From Escherichia coli (GTDB lineage Bacteria; Pseudomonadota; Gammaproteobacteria; Enterobacterales; Enterobacteriaceae), in the NCBI RefSeq assembly GCF_003334305.1, contig NZ_QOWS01000046.1: DNA of 7,574 nucleotides. One strand, written 5' to 3'. A program made the position numbers and the translations under genes. This document shows positions 171-6,636 of this stretch, piece by piece. The notes under the pieces are model-generated. The model did not search any database and had not been told where the DNA came from. It saw only the letters and a list, made by a program, of their open reading frames with translations. Numbering within the stretch: the stretch's first letter is position 1; the number at the start of each line of letters is the position of its first letter.

Positions 171-994
171 TCACTGAGTCAGCCCAACAAAGCGACCCGC
201 CTTGATATAAATCCCAGGCTTCAGGTGCCCAACATACTGTAACTGCGTTTCTGGCTTAAACGCAGAGACATCACCAATACGCATATGCATCAGATCGGCA
301 GGGCTAATCCAGCCCGATTGCGCCAGTGTAAGTGGATGCCCGGCTTTGGCAAAGGCATCCGTGACAAATTCCGAACAAAACCACGACTTTTTGTCTCCTT
401 CGCCCACACTGCTTAACTGCGCTTTCGCCAGGCCGCTGACGCACTTTGGCGAAAATCCTCGGAGAACGGATTCAGTGAGCACATCTGGCGAGTCACCATA
501 AAGGGAATAAATTCGACAATGCCGCGATAGTTATAACCGCTATCTTTGATTTTATTGGCAAACGCGGTGATATCTGTGGCTTGTTGCGGGGTAAGATCCG
601 GGACTCGTAAGACGAAAAGCTTATCACTATGCTTCATCGCTTTTTTAAGGGAAACAATCTGGACGCCAGCGCCTGTCGCTTCTGCAACGTTATTATCACC
701 CAGAAAGATTGCAACGTGACTCACAGAGGAAGTGCTGAAGACGCGGATTCCAAATGAGGTTACCCCAAGGCTTGAGGAGAACAGCAAATCGCCGGGTTTG
801 AGATCAGGTGCCGTTATTTCTTTTATTGATTGTTCGGTGAAAGAGCTTTGATGCTGGAATTTGACAGCCCATGTTTTTGCCTCGGCATCTACTGCTGTGG
901 CTGATGGGTCTGGCTGGCTGATATCAACGGTACAAGCCGAAAGTAAAAGAAAGCTGGGGAGAAACAGGCGGCAGTACGCCTTTGGTTTATCCAT
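171..994 (-). pseudogene. yaeF: yaeF-like lipoprotein (permuted NlpC/P60-type putative peptidase), interrupted by a frameshift in this sequence
   Basis: Two overlapping minus-strand ORFs in different frames (413..1048 and 171..482). The upstream one starts MDKPKAYCRLFLPSFLLLSAC (signal peptide plus lipobox LSAC) from ATG at 992-994 and stops at TAA 413-415. The downstream one carries the Cys motif WFCSEFV and runs to the stop at 171-173. His-containing and Cys-containing segments fall in separate frames. Span 171..994 is 824 nt, not a multiple of 3. Confidence 0.8.
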
Positions 995-1010
995 TTTATA
1001 CAATCCATGT

Positions 1011-1038
1011 AAAAAAAGGGCCCTGAAATTCAGGACCC
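1011..1038 (-). terminator. Rho-independent terminator of proS
   Basis: Read on the minus strand: GGGUCCUGA-AUU-UCAGGGCCC, a 9-bp stem with one G-U pair and a 3-nt loop, followed directly by U7 (plus-strand a7 at 1011-1017). It begins about 10 nt downstream of the proS stop. Confidence 0.8.
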
Positions 1039-1047
1039 TTTCTGGCA

Positions 1048-2766
1048 TCAGCCTTTAATCTGTTTCACCAGATATTCGACGATGTCACCAGTCTTAATTA
1101 ACTGTTTCTCGCCGTTGCGACGATATTTATATTCGATATCGTCGTTGTCGAGGTTACGGTCGCCCAGCACAATAGTGTGCGGAATACCGATCAGTTCCAT
1201 ATCAGCAAACATCACGCCCGGACGCTCTTTGCGGTCATCCAGCAGCACTTCGATACCTTGTGCACGCAGTTCGCTGTACAGTTTCTCAGCAAGCTCTTGT
1301 ACGCGGAAGGATTTGTGCATGTTCATCGGCAGAATCGCCACCTGGAACGGCGCGATAGCGTCAGGCCATACGATGCCTCGTTCGTCGTAGTTCTGCTCAA
1401 TCGCCGCAGCTACCACACGCGTTACCCCGATACCGTAGCAACCCATCGTCAGGATTTGGTTACGGCCATCTTCACCCTGTACGGAGGCTTTCAGTGCTTC
1501 GGAGTACTTGGTACCCAGCTGGAAGATGTGACCAACTTCGATACCACGTTTGATCAGCAGCGTACCCTGGCCATCCGGGCTTGGATCGCCAGCCACCACG
1601 TTACGGATATCTGCAACTTCCGGGGTAGCGACATCGCGATCCCAGTTGATGCCGAAGTAGTGTTTACCATCGATGTTAGCACCAGCAGCGAAATCACTCA
1701 TCGCCGCAACGGTACGGTCAATCACCACCGGAATCGGCATGTTTACCGGACCCAGTGAACCCGGACCGGCTTTAACCACGGCACGAATTTCTTCTTCGGT
1801 CGCGAAAGTCAGCGGGCTTGCAACCTGCGGCAGTTTTTCTGCTTTAACTTCGTTCAGCTCGTGATCACCGCGCACCAGCAGCGCAACCAGCGGGAAGCTA
1901 CTGCCTTCAACCGCTTTAACCAGCAGAGTCTTAACCGTTTTCTCAATCGGCAGATTGAACTGTTCAACCAGTTCCGCGATGGTTTTCGCGTTCGGCGTAT
2001 CAACCAGCGTCATTTCCTGGGTAGCAGCAGCGCGCGGTTCTTTCGGCGCGATAGCTTCTGCCAGTTCAATGTTCGCTGCATAGTCAGAGGTGTCGGAGAA
2101 GACCACATCGTCTTCACCGCTCTGCGCCAGCACCTGGAATTCGTGAGAGGCGCTGCCGCCGATAGAACCGGTGTCGGCTTGTACGGCGCGGAAATCCAGC
2201 CCCATGCGGCTGAAGATTTTGCTGTAGGCCGCATACATTGCATCGTAGGTTTCCTGCAGGGATTCCTGAGAAGTATGGAAAGAGTAAGCATCTTTCATCA
2301 GGAATTCGCGGGAACGCATGACGCCGAAACGCGGACGCACTTCGTCGCGGAACTTGGTCTGGATCTGATAGAAGTTCAGCGGCAGCTGTTTGTAAGAGCT
2401 AAGCTCGTTACGAATCAGGTCAGTGATAACTTCTTCATGAGTTGGGCCGAGTACGAACGGACGCTCGCCACGGTCAACAAAACGCAGCAGTTCCGGACCG
2501 TACTGTTCCCAACGACCACTCTCTTGCCACAAATCAGCTGGCTGAACCACCGGCATCGACACCTCGATCGCACCGGCGTTGTTCATCTCTTCACGCACGA
2601 TGTTTTCGACTTTTTTCAGAACGCGCACGCCGGTCGGCAGCCAGGTATATAACCCGGAGGCCAGCTTGCGGATCATCCCGGCGCGCAGCATCAGCTGATG
2701 GCTGATCACCTCGGCGTCGGCAGGTGTCTCCTTGAGAGTGGAGAGCAGGTATTGGCTAGTACGCAT
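1048..2766 (-). CDS. proS: Prolyl-tRNA synthetase (class II aaRS with INS editing domain), 572 aa
   Basis: The 590-aa ORF contains the recognisable ProS sequence starting [20 protein letters not shown] at an internal ATG (2764-2766), giving 572 aa. The 18 upstream in-frame codons are treated as non-coding leader. Confidence 0.96.
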
Positions 2767-2877
2767 GTTGTTACGGTTCCAGTTGGAAGGTAGAACAGGC
2801 TCAAGGCGAGCCTGGGACAAAAAAAAGTGATTTAGTTTACCAGTGCAAAAGAAATGTCAAAAGAGAAGGGCGTGAAT

Positions 2878-3585
2878 TTAACGCGGTTCCAGCGCAAAGA
2901 CTTCAAAACCTGCGTCGGTGACGCGCCAGCGAACGTTAAAATCATGTAGCCAGACGGCATAGGTTTTGCCCGTTTCCTCACCTTTACGATAGGCCGGGCG
3001 TGGGTCCTGCGCCAGTACTTCGCGGATAAACAGCGTTAACTGCGGATAACGCTTCTCCAGCGTCAAAAGCTGCTTTTCGACCTCTGCGGTAAAACTCACC
3101 GCCATCTCTGCCGCTGGCGCACTTTGCGCATAGCTGGCACTGGCATCGGGAAGCGATTCGGCAAAGGGGAGATACGGTTTGATATCCACTACCGGCGTAC
3201 CATCGACCAGATCCAGACTGCCGAGCTTCAGAATCACGCTGTCTTTATGGCAAACAACCTCTTTCAGCTCTACCAGCGACATACCAATTGGGTTAGGGCG
3301 GAAAGTAGAGCGTGTTGCGAAAACCCCCATTCTGGCGTTACCGCCGAGGCGCGGTGGACGCACAGTCGGACGCCAGCCGCCTTCCATCGTTTGATGAAAG
3401 ACGAAAAGGATCCATAAATGGCTGAACGCTTCCAGGCCGCGAACGGCGTCGGCCTGGTTGTAGGGAGCAATGAGATGCAGTTCGCCGTTGGCGCTTTTTA
3501 CCAGACCTGGCTGGCGCGGAACGGCGAATTTTTCTTTATAGGGCGAGCGAATAACGCCTATTTGCTCGAACTGGAAACTGCTCAT
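2878..3585 (-). CDS. trmO: tRNA (adenine37-N6)-methyltransferase TrmO (formerly YaeB/TsaA), 235 aa
   Basis: ORF translation MSSFQFEQIGVIRSPYKEKFAVPRQPGLVK... recognised as E. coli YaeB/TrmO with matching length. Its ATG overlaps the rcsF stop (ATGA). Confidence 0.94.
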   Translation of the reverse strand: MSSFQFEQIGVIRSPYKEKFAVPRQPGLVKSANGELHLIAPYNQADAVRGLEAFSHLWILFVFHQTMEGGWRPTVRPPRLGGNARMGVFATRSTFRPNPIGMSLVELKEVVCHKDSVILKLGSLDLVDGTPVVDIKPYLPFAESLPDASASYAQSAPAAEMAVSFTAEVEKQLLTLEKRYPQLTLFIREVLAQDPRPAYRKGEETGKTYAVWLHDFNVRWRVTDAGFEVFALEPR

Positions 3586-3986
3586 TTCGCCGTAATGTTA
3601 AGCGCAGAGCCGATACATACAGCCTGACGATAGCAGCCTGGCGTACCGCTGGTGACTTCGCAGCTATGCAGTAATACCGCATTGGCCTTCATTTTCGAGG
3701 CGTTGATTTGCATCCGCTTACGCGCGGTTGGAATGCTCGGCGGAGAGTCCTGATTAGAGGCCTGGCAAGAGTCGCCACTGACTTCACCGAGATCGCGGAA
3801 CGGTTTGCCGACTAATTCTTCTGCATTGGTATAAATTCGGACCGGCGTGGCGCGCGGCGCTTTCGGTTTTGCAGGCTCCGCTTTCGGCTGGGGTGCAGTG
3901 CTTTGAACGGGTTCGACAGGGGATCTGCTTAACATGGAACAGCCGCTTAGCATGAGTGCTACTAAACAGATCGGTAAAGCACGCAT
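3582..3986 (-). CDS. rcsF: Outer-membrane lipoprotein RcsF (Rcs envelope-stress sensor), 134 aa
   Basis: ORF MRALPICLVALMLSGCSML... with lipobox LSGC, a Pro/Lys-rich linker and a C-terminal Cys-rich domain. RBS GAGGA lies 8 nt upstream of ATG at 3984-3986. Recognised as RcsF. Confidence 0.95.
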   Translation of the reverse strand: MRALPICLVALMLSGCSMLSRSPVEPVQSTAPQPKAEPAKPKAPRATPVRIYTNAEELVGKPFRDLGEVSGDSCQASNQDSPPSIPTARKRMQINASKMKANAVLLHSCEVTSGTPGCYRQAVCIGSALNITAK

Positions 3987-4048
3987 AGTATTTCCTCAAT
4001 GTATGATCAAAACGTCAATATTGAATCAGGAGCTTGTAAAAATGACAA

Positions 4049-4066
4049 GACGGGCAAGCGCCCGTC
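4049..4066 (-). terminator. Probable intrinsic terminator downstream of metQ (end of the metNIQ operon)
   Basis: Minus-strand hairpin GACGGGC-GCUU-GCCCGUC (7-bp GC-rich stem) followed by UUGUCAUUUUUA, about 38 nt after the metQ stop. The U-tract is interrupted, hence moderate confidence. Confidence 0.5.
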
Positions 4067-4103
4067 CTGAATGATATTACAAATTGTGGAAACAGCCTAA
4101 AAA

Positions 4104-4919
4104 TTACCAGCCTTTAACAGCGCCGCCGTTAAACACTTTGTTTGCTGCTTCGTAAACTTCATCAGACTGATAAGCCTGGACGAATTTCTTCACGTTCTCG
4201 GCGTCTTTGTTATCTTCACGCGTTACGATCAGGTTTACGTACGGGGAGTCTTTATCTTCGACAAAGATACCGTCTTTCGCTGGAGTCAGGCCAATCTGGC
4301 TGGCATAGGTGGTATTGATAACTGCCAGAGCGATTTGCGCGTCGTCCAGAGATCGAGGCAGCTGCGGTGCTTCCAGCTCAACAATTTTCAGATTTTTTGG
4401 GTTCTCAACAACATCAAGAACGGTCGGCAGCAGGCCAACGCCATCTTTCAGTTTGATCAAGCCCACTTTTTGCAGCAGCAGCAGTGAACGACCAAGATTA
4501 GTTGGATCGTTTGGCACGGCAACCTGCGAACCATCCTGCAGTTCATCCAGTGATTTGATTTTCTTGGAGTAACCAGCAATCGGATAAACAAAAGTGTTGC
4601 CTACTGCGACCAGTTTGTAGCCACGATCTTTCAGTTGCTGATCAAGGTACGGTTTATGCTGGAAGGCGTTGGCGTCGATATCGCCTTTGCTCAATGCTTC
4701 GTTTGGCAGAACATAGTCGTTGAAGGTTACCAGCTCAACGTCCAGGCCATATTTGTCTTTCGCAACTTTCTGCGCGACTTCTGCTACCTGCTGTTCGGCA
4801 CCAACAATCACGCCGACTTTAATGTGGTTTGGATCTTTTTCATCCTGACCGCAGCCTACCAGTGCCAGTGATCCAATCAGGGCTCCCACTGCCGCAAAGG
4901 TTTTGAATTTGAACGCCAT
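4104..4919 (-). CDS. metQ: D-methionine ABC transporter substrate-binding lipoprotein MetQ (NlpA family), 271 aa
   Basis: ORF MAFKFKTFAAVGALIGSLALVGCGQDEK... with signal peptide and lipobox cysteine. Strong RBS AAGGAA upstream. Recognised as MetQ with matching length. Confidence 0.96.
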   Translation of the reverse strand: MAFKFKTFAAVGALIGSLALVGCGQDEKDPNHIKVGVIVGAEQQVAEVAQKVAKDKYGLDVELVTFNDYVLPNEALSKGDIDANAFQHKPYLDQQLKDRGYKLVAVGNTFVYPIAGYSKKIKSLDELQDGSQVAVPNDPTNLGRSLLLLQKVGLIKLKDGVGLLPTVLDVVENPKNLKIVELEAPQLPRSLDDAQIALAVINTTYASQIGLTPAKDGIFVEDKDSPYVNLIVTREDNKDAENVKKFVQAYQSDEVYEAANKVFNGGAVKGW

Positions 4920-4958: not shown

Positions 4959-5612
4959 TTACTTGCGAGTGACAGCCCGGACGATGCGGTCGCCTGCGAA
5001 CTGAATTAAATAAACCAGAATGACCAGCAATACCAGTACCGTATTCATCACCGTCGCGTTATAGCCGATGTAGCCATACTGATAGCCAATCTGACCTAAA
5101 CCACCGGCACCGACTGCACCACCCATCGCGGAATAACCGACCAGGGTAATCAGGGTGATAGTTGCCGCATTCACCAGACCCGGCAATGCTTCCGGTAACA
5201 GCACTTTACGGACGATCTGCATCGGCGTGGCACCCATTGCACGGGAAGCTTCAATTAACCCGGTTGGGATCTCCAGCAGAGCGTTCTCGACCATACGGGC
5301 AATAAACGGTGCTGCACCAACGGTTAACGGAACAATCGCTGCCTGCAAACCAATCGATGTACCGACAATAACGCGGGTAAACGGAATCATCCATACCAGC
5401 AAGATAATGAACGGGATGGAACGGAAAATGTTCACAATCGCAGAAACGGTACGATACAGCTTCGCGTTAGCAATAATTTGCCCCGGGCGCGTAACATAAA
5501 GCAGGACGCCGACCGGCAGACCAATCACAAAGCCAAAAAATCCGGATACGAAGGTCATTGCCAGCGTTTCCCATACGCCACGAACCAGCAACCACATCAT
5601 CGGCTCAGACAT
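4959..5612 (-). CDS. metI: D-methionine ABC transporter permease MetI, 217 aa
   Basis: Hydrophobic multi-[33 protein letters not shown]... Start ATG overlaps the metN stop by 8 nt. Recognised as MetI with matching length. Confidence 0.95.
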
Positions 5613-6636
5613 AACCCAGTACCTCTACTTTTACATGGTGTTCCTGCAGCCAGGCAATGGCGGCTTGCGTATCTTGTTGTGTGCCGTGCATTTCAGTCAG
5701 CATGATGCCGAACTTAACGCCACCGGCGTAATCCATCTGCGCGCTAATAATGTTGTTGTTGACGTTGAAACGACGCGCGGTTTCAGAAAGCAGCGGGGCA
5801 TCGACCGATTGACCGGTAAACTCCAGGCGCAACATCGGCACGCAGTCAGTAAATGGCTCCGCTTGCAGACGTTCCTGGTAATCTTCCGGGATATCCAGAT
5901 GCAGGGTCGACTGAATAAACTTCTGCGCCAGCGGCGTTTTCGGATGCGAGAACACTTCACTTACCGTGTCCTGCTCGATCAGTTCGCCATTGCTGATGAC
6001 CGCCACGCAATCACAAATACGCTTCACAACGTCCATTTCGTGGGTGATCAACAGAATCGTCAAACCCAGACGGCGGTTAATGTCTTTCAGCAGTTCGAGA
6101 ATAGAACGTGTCGTTGCCGGGTCCAGCGCGCTGGTGGCTTCATCACACAGCAATACTTTGGGATTGCTGGCTAATGCACGGGCAATCGCCACACGTTGTT
6201 TCTGCCCACCGGAAAGATTCGACGGGTAGCTATCATGCTTATCGCCAAGACCAACCAATGACAGCAATTCCGTCACGCGACGTTTGATCTCGTCTTTCGG
6301 TGTGTTGTCCAGCTCCAGCGGCAGAGCCACGTTGCCAAAAACAGTACGCGAAGAGAGCAGGTTAAAATGCTGGAAAATCATACCAATCTGGCGGCGAGCT
6401 TTGGTCAACTCGGATTCTGACAGCGTGGTCAGTTCCTGGCCATCGACCAGCACGCTACCCTCGGTTGGGCGCTCCAGCAGGTTTACACAACGTATAAGCG
6501 TACTCTTACCCGCGCCTGAGGCACCGATAACGCCATAAATTTGTCCAGCTGGCACATGCAGGCTGACGTTGTTCAACGCCTGGATGGTGCGGGTGCCCTG
6601 GTGGAACACTTTGGTGATATTCGAAAGTTTTATCAT
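5605..6636 (-). CDS. metN: D-methionine ABC transporter ATP-binding protein MetN, 343 aa
   Basis: Walker [13 protein letters not shown] signature LSGGQKQR, Walker [12 protein letters not shown], and a C-terminal regulatory extension. Recognised as MetN with matching length. Confidence 0.96.

What the first reader, a model, noticed from the sequence alone, without database searches (positions are those of the whole stretch)
3582..3585. rcsF stop and trmO start overlap (ATGA): an envelope-stress sensor coupled to a tRNA-modification enzyme
The rcsF stop codon TGA and the trmO start codon ATG share the sequence ATGA on the minus strand, a classic translational-coupling arrangement. The sequence shows no terminator between rcsF and trmO. 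This links translation of an outer-membrane stress-sensing lipoprotein to that of a tRNA m6t6A37 methyltransferase, a functionally unexplained pairing.
Basis: seen in the sequence. Interest (0 to 1): 0.3.

Follow-up and report, generated by a model that had tools for sequence, protein, structure and literature searches.

The report
rcsF–trmO overlapping stop/start (ATGA) junction
The stop codon of the E. coli envelope-stress lipoprotein gene rcsF really does overlap the start codon of the tRNA methyltransferase gene trmO, an ordinary and already catalogued operon junction; the only mildly new point is that this gene pair stays together in almost every bacterium that has an RcsF-like gene.

Summary
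Confirmed and ordinary. The window is E. coli chromosome (metNIQ–rcsF–trmO–proS). On the minus strand rcsF ends AAA-TGA and trmO begins ATG-AGC, sharing ATGA at 3582-3585. RefSeq annotates it this way. The pair is listed with distance −4 in a published table of E. coli gene pairs, and a Klebsiella paper names the 'rcsF-trmO operon'. A −4 overlap is the commonest junction between same-strand E. coli genes, and most such pairs do not encode complexes.

What I added:
- ATGA is invariant in 80 of 80 Enterobacteriaceae species while neighbouring synonymous sites vary.
- trmO has no Shine-Dalgarno sequence in any of them, whereas rcsF has a strong one.
- No terminator, consensus promoter or constrained synonymous block lies inside rcsF.
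- Across 24 RcsF-family lineages, including Corallincola, Marinobacter and marine metagenomes, trmO lies downstream on the same strand in 23, usually within −11 to +33 nt and usually without an SD.

Best explanation: a bicistronic operon in which trmO is translated by ribosomes that terminate on rcsF and reinitiate. Coupling itself is untested. No functional link between the two proteins is shown. Low interest; already known.

The parts
4046..4069 (-). Intrinsic terminator of the upstream metNIQ operon (GACGGGC-GCTT-GCCCGTC followed by a T-run). It marks the upstream boundary of the rcsF-trmO transcription unit.
   Evidence: Terminator scan. The stem and T-tail are conserved in 75 unique Enterobacteriaceae sequences.
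4020..4048 (-). Putative rcsF-trmO promoter: TTGTCA (4048-4043), a 17-nt spacer, then an extended −10 TGaTTCAAT (4028-4020). This is a prediction only.
   Evidence: Read. These blocks (CTTGT.ATTT ... cTGaTTCAATa) are the conserved parts of the metQ-rcsF spacer in 75 unique sequences. The site is not picked up by the strict consensus scan. A Salmonella study used this upstream region as the 'yaeB promoter', and a Klebsiella study mapped a CRP site in the rcsF promoter.
3993..3997 (-). Shine-Dalgarno sequence of rcsF (GAGGA).
   Evidence: Anti-SD duplex −6.2 kcal/mol in the window; mean −6.1 in 80 relatives.
3582..3986 (-). rcsF coding sequence (134 aa outer-membrane lipoprotein, lipobox LSGC, four conserved Cys).
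   Evidence: NCBIfam NF008048 scores 229.5 bits against a cut-off of 140. Pfam PF16358 is recorded on homologues.
3582..3585 (-). The ATGA stop/start overlap: the trmO ATG (3585-3583) and the rcsF TGA (3584-3582).
   Evidence: Invariant in 80 of 80 Enterobacteriaceae species. The last rcsF Lys codon is always AAA, never AAG.
2878..3585 (-). trmO (tsaA/yaeB) coding sequence, 235 aa, with no Shine-Dalgarno sequence upstream. It contains the DPRxxY motif (DPRPAY).
   Evidence: TIGR00104 scores 207.2 bits against a cut-off of 93.25. The DPRxxY motif is described in PMC4132733 and read in the translation.
2834..2860 (-). Promoter-like element for proS directly after the trmO stop: TTGACA (2860-2855) ... 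TGgTAAACT (2842-2834). No terminator separates trmO from proS.
   Evidence: Read. Conserved in 71 unique sequences. No minus-strand terminator was found in 2766-2878.

Best explanation
rcsF and trmO form one bicistronic transcription unit. Transcription starts at a promoter between the metQ terminator and rcsF. trmO has no ribosome-binding site of its own, so a ribosome finishing RcsF at UGA finds the trmO AUG one base upstream and reinitiates there (termination-reinitiation). TrmO synthesis therefore depends on, and is capped by, rcsF transcription and translation. The arrangement is old. Because trmO relies on rcsF for both promoter and ribosomes, rearrangements that separate the two genes would silence trmO. 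That dependence is enough to explain why the pair stays together, without any biochemical link between a periplasmic or outer-membrane lipoprotein and a cytoplasmic tRNA methyltransferase. Shown here: the overlap, its conservation, the absence of an SD, and the absence of a terminator. Inferred: co-transcription in E. coli, the reinitiation mechanism, and the 'locked-in operon' reason for linkage.
For: - The overlap and ORFs are confirmed and annotated.
- trmO lacks an SD: −2.1 kcal/mol in the window and no stronger than −1.7 in 80 of 80 Enterobacteriaceae, against about −6.1 for rcsF. An SD is also absent in 26 of 29 distant lineage representatives.
- ATGA is invariant in 80 species while neighbouring synonymous sites vary. 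The synonymous change AAA to AAG, which would give a GTG start, is never seen.
- There is no minus-strand terminator and no consensus sigma-70 site inside rcsF or trmO.
- No block of constrained synonymous sites in the interior or 3' half of rcsF hints at an embedded promoter or SD.
- Only the metQ terminator and a TTGTCA-17-TGaTTCAAT element are conserved upstream of rcsF.
- In K. pneumoniae the locus is drawn as the 'rcsF-trmO operon', CRP binds the rcsF promoter, and trmO mRNA rises together with rcsF.
- Salmonella workers complemented a yaeB mutant by fusing the region upstream of rcsF directly to the yaeB ATG.
- Four of five native E. coli ATGA pairs tested by Huber et al. showed coupling, and about 20 nt of spacing abolishes it.
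- trmO follows the rcsF-family gene in 23 of 24 lineages, within 33 nt or less in 19 of them.
Against: - No experiment on this junction was found, so coupling is an inference.
- Huber et al. found that removing the SD usually lowers reinitiation in E. coli, and that one pair with a weak SD (bioBF) initiated de novo rather than by coupling. An SD-less junction is therefore not proof of coupling.
- The junction RNA has no significant structure that would block de novo initiation (z = 0.84).
- A weak internal promoter would escape both the consensus scan and the synonymous-site test.
- Some lineages tolerate separation: Xenorhabdus +33 nt, two lineages at about 190-320 nt, one clade with a 1.7-kb insertion that includes an opposite-strand gene, and one lineage where trmO is gone from the locus. 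trmO can therefore be expressed on its own.
- I could not retrieve TSS or ribosome-profiling values for trmO. It has no row in the one table I could read.
Confidence: 0.7

Rival explanations
1. trmO is expressed independently. An internal promoter within rcsF, SD-independent de novo initiation at an unstructured A-rich start region, or both, supply most TrmO. The 4-nt overlap is then only compact packing.
For: - The junction RNA is not significantly structured, so the AUG may be accessible.
- bioBF shows that a weak-SD ATGA pair can initiate de novo.
- Lineages with gaps of +33 to about +320 nt, or with an intervening opposite-strand gene, must express trmO without coupling.
Against: - There is no consensus promoter in 2600-4300.
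- There is no synonymous-site constraint inside rcsF apart from the final AAA codon.
- ATGA is invariant in 80 species and the SD is uniformly absent.
- trmO mRNA co-varies with rcsF in Klebsiella.
- Complementation of a Salmonella yaeB mutant used the rcsF upstream region as promoter.
Confidence: 0.15
2. The pairing reflects a real functional or regulatory connection. For example, TrmO output may be deliberately tied to RcsF-family lipoprotein synthesis or to envelope state, or the two may have a shared role that predates the Rcs phosphorelay.
For: - The rcsF-family-to-trmO order is kept in 23 of 24 lineages. These span Enterobacterales, Corallincola (Alteromonadales), Marinobacter and uncultured marine bacteria, and the upstream neighbours differ completely between them.
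- Adjacency kept over such distances is more typical of functionally linked genes (established generalisation, from my own knowledge).
- In Salmonella, yaeB affects virulence and pstSCAB expression (abstract).
Against: - The proteins act in different compartments. RcsF is exported and TrmO is a cytoplasmic tRNA enzyme (PMC4132733), so they cannot form a complex.
- 69.6% of tightly spaced E. coli pairs encode no complex.
- Dependence of a promoter-less, SD-less trmO on its upstream gene explains the linkage without any shared function.
- No paper connects the two functions.
- One lineage lost trmO from the locus and one clade inserted genes between the pair.
Confidence: 0.1
3. The overlap is a neutral by-product of stop or start codon drift, with no effect on expression. 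It is kept only because each of its four bases belongs to an essential start or stop codon.
For: - A single mutation turns an ATG start into an ATGA overlap, and −4 is the commonest junction in all prokaryotes.
- Three of the four bases are fixed by the need for a start and a stop.
Against: - The one free change (AAA to AAG, giving a GTG start) is never seen in Enterobacteriaceae.
- Distant lineages replaced ATGA by other very short junctions (−8, −1, 0 to +7) rather than drifting apart.
- An SD was not acquired in most lineages, which argues that the tight spacing itself is used.
Confidence: 0.05

Closest known systems
−4 nt (ATGA) overlapping unidirectional gene pairs translated by termination-reinitiation (Huber et al. 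2019, PMC6728339; 2023, PMC10666635)
   Same: Both have same-strand genes sharing ATGA. This very pair (b0196 rcsF / b0195 trmO, distance −4, 'CMPLX not') is in their E. coli table. The junction type is the most frequent in E. coli.
   Different: The pairs they tested experimentally (hyfHI, astDB, ydbH/ynbE, menDH, bioBF) did not include rcsF/trmO. Here there is no SD at all, whereas most overlapping pairs carry one inside the upstream gene.
rcsF-trmO operon of Klebsiella pneumoniae (PMC6985210)
   Same: The two genes and their order are the same. The K. oxytoca locus L081 reads CAATGA at the junction, also a −4 ATGA overlap. The paper describes the locus as one operon with a CRP-bound promoter upstream of rcsF, and trmO mRNA follows rcsF.
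   Different: That work measured mRNA only, and in another genus. Translation coupling was not addressed.
metN/metI junction in the same window (ATGTCTGA, 8-nt overlap, 5605-5612)
   Same: It is another same-strand overlap in the same 7.5-kb window, which shows how common such junctions are.
   Different: metN and metI are subunits of one ABC transporter, and metI has a good SD (−7.1 kcal/mol). rcsF and trmO are functionally unrelated, and trmO has no SD.

Membership tests
ATGA (−4) overlapping gene pair with termination-reinitiation coupling | Two same-strand ORFs whose stop and start codons share ATGA | tested here: met
   listed with distance −4 in the PMC10666635 supplement.
ATGA (−4) overlapping gene pair with termination-reinitiation coupling | Both genes on one transcript (no terminator or promoter in between) | tested here: inconclusive
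   There is no terminator and no consensus promoter and no constrained synonymous block in rcsF. Operon status is reported in Klebsiella. No E. coli transcript map could be consulted.
ATGA (−4) overlapping gene pair with termination-reinitiation coupling | Translation of the downstream gene falls when upstream translation is terminated early, at constant mRNA | not testable with these tools
   This needs a reporter or Ribo-seq experiment. Only indirect support exists: the absent SD and the invariant junction.
RcsF (NCBIfam NF008048 equivalog; Pfam PF16358) | Whole-protein score above the curated cut-off; lipobox plus four conserved cysteines | tested here: met
   229.5 bits against a cut-off of 140. 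LSGC lipobox; of the four cysteines C74, C109, C118 and C124, C109 and C124 are invariant and C74 and C118 are at least 90% conserved in alignment A1. The distant RcsF-like proteins (Corallincola, Marinobacter, marine) score only 54-70 bits. They are family members by Pfam but not equivalogs.
TrmO / TsaA (TIGR00104; Pfam PF01980 + PF18389) | Score above the cut-off; N-terminal beta-barrel domain plus a C-terminal domain with the DPRxxY motif | tested here: met
   207.2 bits against a cut-off of 93.25. DPRPAY is present in the translation; the motif is defined in PMC4132733. Neighbouring homologues carry TrmO_N and TrmO_C.

The most novel reading that the evidence does not exclude
The near-universal rcsF-family-to-trmO adjacency includes bacteria outside the order that carries the Rcs phosphorelay, and is mostly SD-less and within a few nucleotides. 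Under the novel reading it is not just operon inertia. It would instead be a selected device that ties the level of a tRNA-Thr anticodon-loop methyltransferase to the synthesis of an envelope lipoprotein, implying an unrecognised link between envelope biogenesis or stress and decoding.
Probability: 0.1. Interest if true: 0.55.

Novelty: already known. Interest (0 to 1): 0.2.

Why it matters
In practice it matters to anyone who manipulates rcsF. Nonsense, frameshift or insertion alleles of rcsF are likely to be polar on trmO at the level of translation, so phenotypes credited to the Rcs sensor could partly reflect loss of m6t6A37 in tRNA-Thr. Conversely, 'yaeB promoter' studies are really studying the rcsF promoter. 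Conceptually it is one more example of the majority class of tightly coupled E. coli gene pairs that do not encode a complex. The one observation that goes beyond the textbook is the depth of the linkage: 23 of 24 RcsF-family lineages, across several gammaproteobacterial orders. It could be followed up cheaply by a full-genome census, but by itself it does not open a long-standing question.

Tried and rejected
- Broad RcsF alignments A1 (45 sequences) and A2 (16 sequences) were too diverse for the genome scan. The narrower A3 worked but returned only Enterobacteriaceae, so distant lineages had to come from 12 single-protein look-ups and one metagenome scan.
- I looked for RNA structure at the junction that might gate initiation. 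None exceeded shuffled controls (z = 0.84).
- The consensus sigma-70 scan of 2600-4300 found no sites. It therefore missed even the conserved extended −10 elements upstream of rcsF and proS, so its silence inside rcsF is weak evidence.
- I looked for E. coli TSS and ribosome-profiling data. My look-ups for the Li et al. 2014 and Thomason et al. 2015 datasets (by PubMed id and by PMC numbers recalled from memory, not verified) found no paper held. The Burkhardt 2017 table lists rcsF but has no row for b0195, for a reason I did not determine.
- Literature searches for rcsF with yaeB, trmO, tsaA, proS, Shewanella or 'gene neighborhood' gave no paper that discusses the pairing beyond the Klebsiella operon figure.
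- I considered a physical RcsF-TrmO complex and rejected it because the proteins sit in different compartments.
- I considered a Thr-codon (ACY) bias in rcsF as a link to TrmO. Nothing obvious showed in the translation, and I did not pursue it.
- I could not test what lies upstream of trmO in gammaproteobacteria that lack RcsF, nor whether the non-Enterobacterales carriers have RcsC, RcsD, RcsB or IgaA.

Full report
**What the window is.** A 1.5-kb stretch around the finding matches 5,425 of 5,426 complete E. coli genomes at 95-100% identity. RefSeq annotation of an identical copy gives gmhB, metN, metI, metQ, rcsF, tsaA (TrmO), proS, yaeF (frameshifted) and nlpE. In window coordinates, all on the minus strand, the genes are metN 5605-6636, metI 4959-5612, metQ 4104-4919, rcsF 3582-3986, trmO 2878-3585 and proS 1048-2766.

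**The observation.** On the minus strand the sequence reads ATT ACG GCG AAA TGA for rcsF and ATG AGC AGT TTC for trmO. ATGA at 3582-3585 is shared. Both products are unambiguous: RcsF scores 229.5 bits on NF008048 (cut-off 140) and TrmO scores 207.2 bits on TIGR00104 (cut-off 93.25). The TrmO alignment starts at residue 1, and the next in-frame ATG is residue 66, so the start at 3585 is sound. ATGA as a bare tetranucleotide is not enriched, at 43 occurrences against about 60 expected. What is non-random is its role and its conservation.

**Anatomy of the unit.**
- Upstream of rcsF sits the metQ terminator (4069-4046).
- It is followed by a conserved TTGTCA-17 nt-TGaTTCAAT element (4048-4020) and a strong SD (GAGGA, −6.2 kcal/mol).
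- trmO has essentially no SD: −2.1 kcal/mol, at a spacing of 1 nt.
- No minus-strand terminator and no consensus sigma-70 site lies in rcsF or trmO.
- The junction RNA folds no better than shuffled sequence (z = 0.84).
- After the trmO stop there is no terminator. There is a conserved promoter-like element for proS (TTGACA ... TGgTAAACT, 2860-2834).

**Conservation in Enterobacteriaceae.** A scan of one genome per species with an RcsF alignment returned 80 loci from Escherichia, Citrobacter, Salmonella, Enterobacter, Klebsiella, Buttiauxella, Cedecea, Kosakonia and other genera.
- In all 80 the junction is ATGA. One locus (L051) was mis-scored by my script but reads AAATGAGT.
- Codons around the junction vary synonymously, for example TCG GCG AAA, TCT GCA AAA and GCG CAA.
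- Synonymous codon entropy in the last 14 rcsF codons is at or above the gene mean. Only the final Lys codon is frozen as AAA; AAG, which would give a GTG start, never occurs.
- No interior window of rcsF shows the constraint expected of an embedded promoter or SD.
- In all 80 species trmO lacks an SD (−1.7 kcal/mol or weaker), while rcsF keeps one (about −6.1).

**Conservation beyond Enterobacteriaceae.** I took representatives of the RcsF family at 50% clustering and looked up their contigs.

| Lineage | rcsF–trmO junction |
|---|---|
| Pectobacterium | −4 |
| Unnamed lineage (P0128) | −4 |
| Ca. Erwinia impunctatus | −4 (GTGA) |
| Xenorhabdus | +33 |
| Providencia-like | +7; the called start is probably too far upstream |
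| P0158 | −1 (TAATG) |
| Two AT-rich lineages | about +190 to +320 |
| P0181 | +3 |
| Corallincola (Alteromonadales) | +2 |
| Marinobacter | −8 |
| One lineage (P0144) | trmO absent; an SDR and a LysR gene sit between rcsF and proS |

A metagenome scan with a distant RcsF-like alignment gave 68 further loci. Every locus with enough downstream DNA has trmO downstream on the same strand, and most are at −11 to +26 nt. One clade of about 20 loci has roughly 1.7 kb inserted, consisting of a small ORF and an opposite-strand epimerase-like gene.

After dereplication at 70% identity there are 24 lineages. trmO is downstream in 23 and within 33 nt in 19. Of 29 distant representatives, 26 lack an SD before trmO. 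The upstream neighbours are not conserved: metNIQ in Enterobacterales, a glycosidase, H-NS or amidohydrolases elsewhere. proS often, but not always, follows trmO.

The distant proteins are Pfam RcsF-family members but fall below the NCBIfam equivalog cut-off, at 54-70 bits. Source names place family members also in Plesiomonas, Thorsellia, Aeromonas and Shewanella.

**What is already known.**
- Huber et al. 2023 list this exact pair (b0196 rcsF / b0195 trmO, distance −4, no complex) in their E. coli table.
- They report that −4 ATGA is the commonest configuration.
- 707 of 2,987 unidirectional E. coli pairs lie between −8 and +6.
- 69.6% of short-distance pairs encode no complex.
- About 20 nt of spacing abolishes coupling.
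- Huber et al. 2019 showed coupling for four of five native E. coli ATGA pairs, with a variable role for the SD.
- A K. pneumoniae paper draws the 'rcsF-trmO operon', shows CRP binding to the rcsF promoter, and finds that trmO mRNA rises with rcsF.
- A Salmonella yaeB paper complemented its mutant by fusing the region upstream of rcsF, including the rcsF SD, directly to the yaeB ATG. In effect it treated the rcsF promoter as the yaeB promoter.
- The TrmO discovery paper does not mention rcsF.
- No searchable paper discusses why the two genes are paired.

**Most likely mechanism.** rcsF and trmO form one transcript from the rcsF promoter, and ribosomes terminating at the rcsF UGA reinitiate on the overlapping AUG. 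The anatomy and conservation are shown here. Co-transcription in E. coli and reinitiation are inferred. The deep linkage is most simply explained by dependence. A trmO without its own promoter or SD cannot easily be moved away from its upstream gene, and the exceptions (insertions, long gaps, one loss) show that escape is possible but rare. A direct functional link is not needed and is not supported. RcsF is exported to the envelope (from my own knowledge of the Rcs system), and TrmO is a cytoplasmic SAM-dependent tRNA-Thr methyltransferase (PMC4132733).

**Rivals.**
- Independent expression from an internal promoter or by SD-less de novo initiation (confidence 0.15).
- A genuine regulatory link between envelope lipoprotein synthesis and tRNA modification (0.1).
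- A neutral overlap with no effect on expression (0.05).

**Verdict.** The only increment from this work is the breadth of conservation of the rcsF-family–trmO pair and of the SD-less tight junction. Interest 0.2; novelty: already known.

Noticed in passing
L091/L092 (Corallincola) 3001-4091; L163 (Marinobacter) 3001-4081; L095-L160 (metagenomes): RcsF-family lipoprotein genes exist outside Enterobacterales, the order I know to carry the Rcs phosphorelay, and are still followed directly by trmO. These proteins lack the Pro/Lys-rich N-terminal linker of E. coli RcsF. Instead they carry a conserved SNLDKxNFxxYF segment after the lipobox, and they score below the NCBIfam RcsF equivalog cut-off (54-70 bits against 140).
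   Followed up: partly
L104-L122, L151 (for example L104 2897-4472): In one high-GC clade of about 20 metagenomic or MAG loci, roughly 1.7 kb is inserted between the rcsF-like gene and trmO. It holds a 128-aa ORF with no NCBIfam match and an opposite-strand NAD-dependent epimerase/reductase-like gene. CydDC-like ABC transporter genes lie upstream. Here trmO cannot be coupled to rcsF.
   Followed up: partly
L086 658-4101: One RcsF lineage (P0144, 147 aa) has no trmO at the locus. An opposite-strand SDR oxidoreductase and a LysR-family (YafC-like) regulator sit between rcsF and proS.
   Followed up: partly
L163 4078-4698; L091 4141-4737: In Marinobacter and Corallincola, trmO is followed by a hexapeptide-repeat acetyltransferase gene. 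In Marinobacter it overlaps the trmO stop by 4 nt, so a second coupled junction extends the unit.
   Followed up: no
L051 (Leclercia adecarboxylata NCTC13032) from about 4298: trmO is broken by two frameshifts; the reading frame moves 0 to 1 to 2 while similarity continues. It is either a pseudogene or indel errors in the assembly.
   Followed up: partly
window 5605-5612 (minus strand): metN and metI overlap by 8 nt (ATGTCTGA). This is a second stop/start overlap in the same window, here between subunits of one ABC transporter and with a good SD for metI.
   Followed up: yes
window 171-1048 (minus strand): yaeF appears split into two overlapping ORFs (413-1048, 211 aa; 171-482, 103 aa). This agrees with the 'frameshifted' pseudogene flag in the matching RefSeq record.
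   Followed up: no
window 2780-2815 (minus strand): The proS leader holds a conserved inverted repeat (CAGGCTC...GAGCCTG) preceded, not followed, by a T-run. It is conserved in 71 Enterobacteriaceae sequences and is not a terminator in either orientation. Its function is unknown.
   Followed up: no
window 4003-4016 (minus strand): TGACGTTTTGATCA between the putative −10 element and the rcsF SD loosely resembles a CRP half-site pair. A CRP site in the rcsF promoter was reported for K. pneumoniae. This stretch is only weakly conserved in the alignment.
   Followed up: no
L003-L080 (contig ranges): Many draft assemblies end 3.5-3.8 kb upstream of rcsF, just beyond gmhB. This fits a repeated element, probably an rRNA operon, at that position across Enterobacteriaceae.
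   Followed up: no
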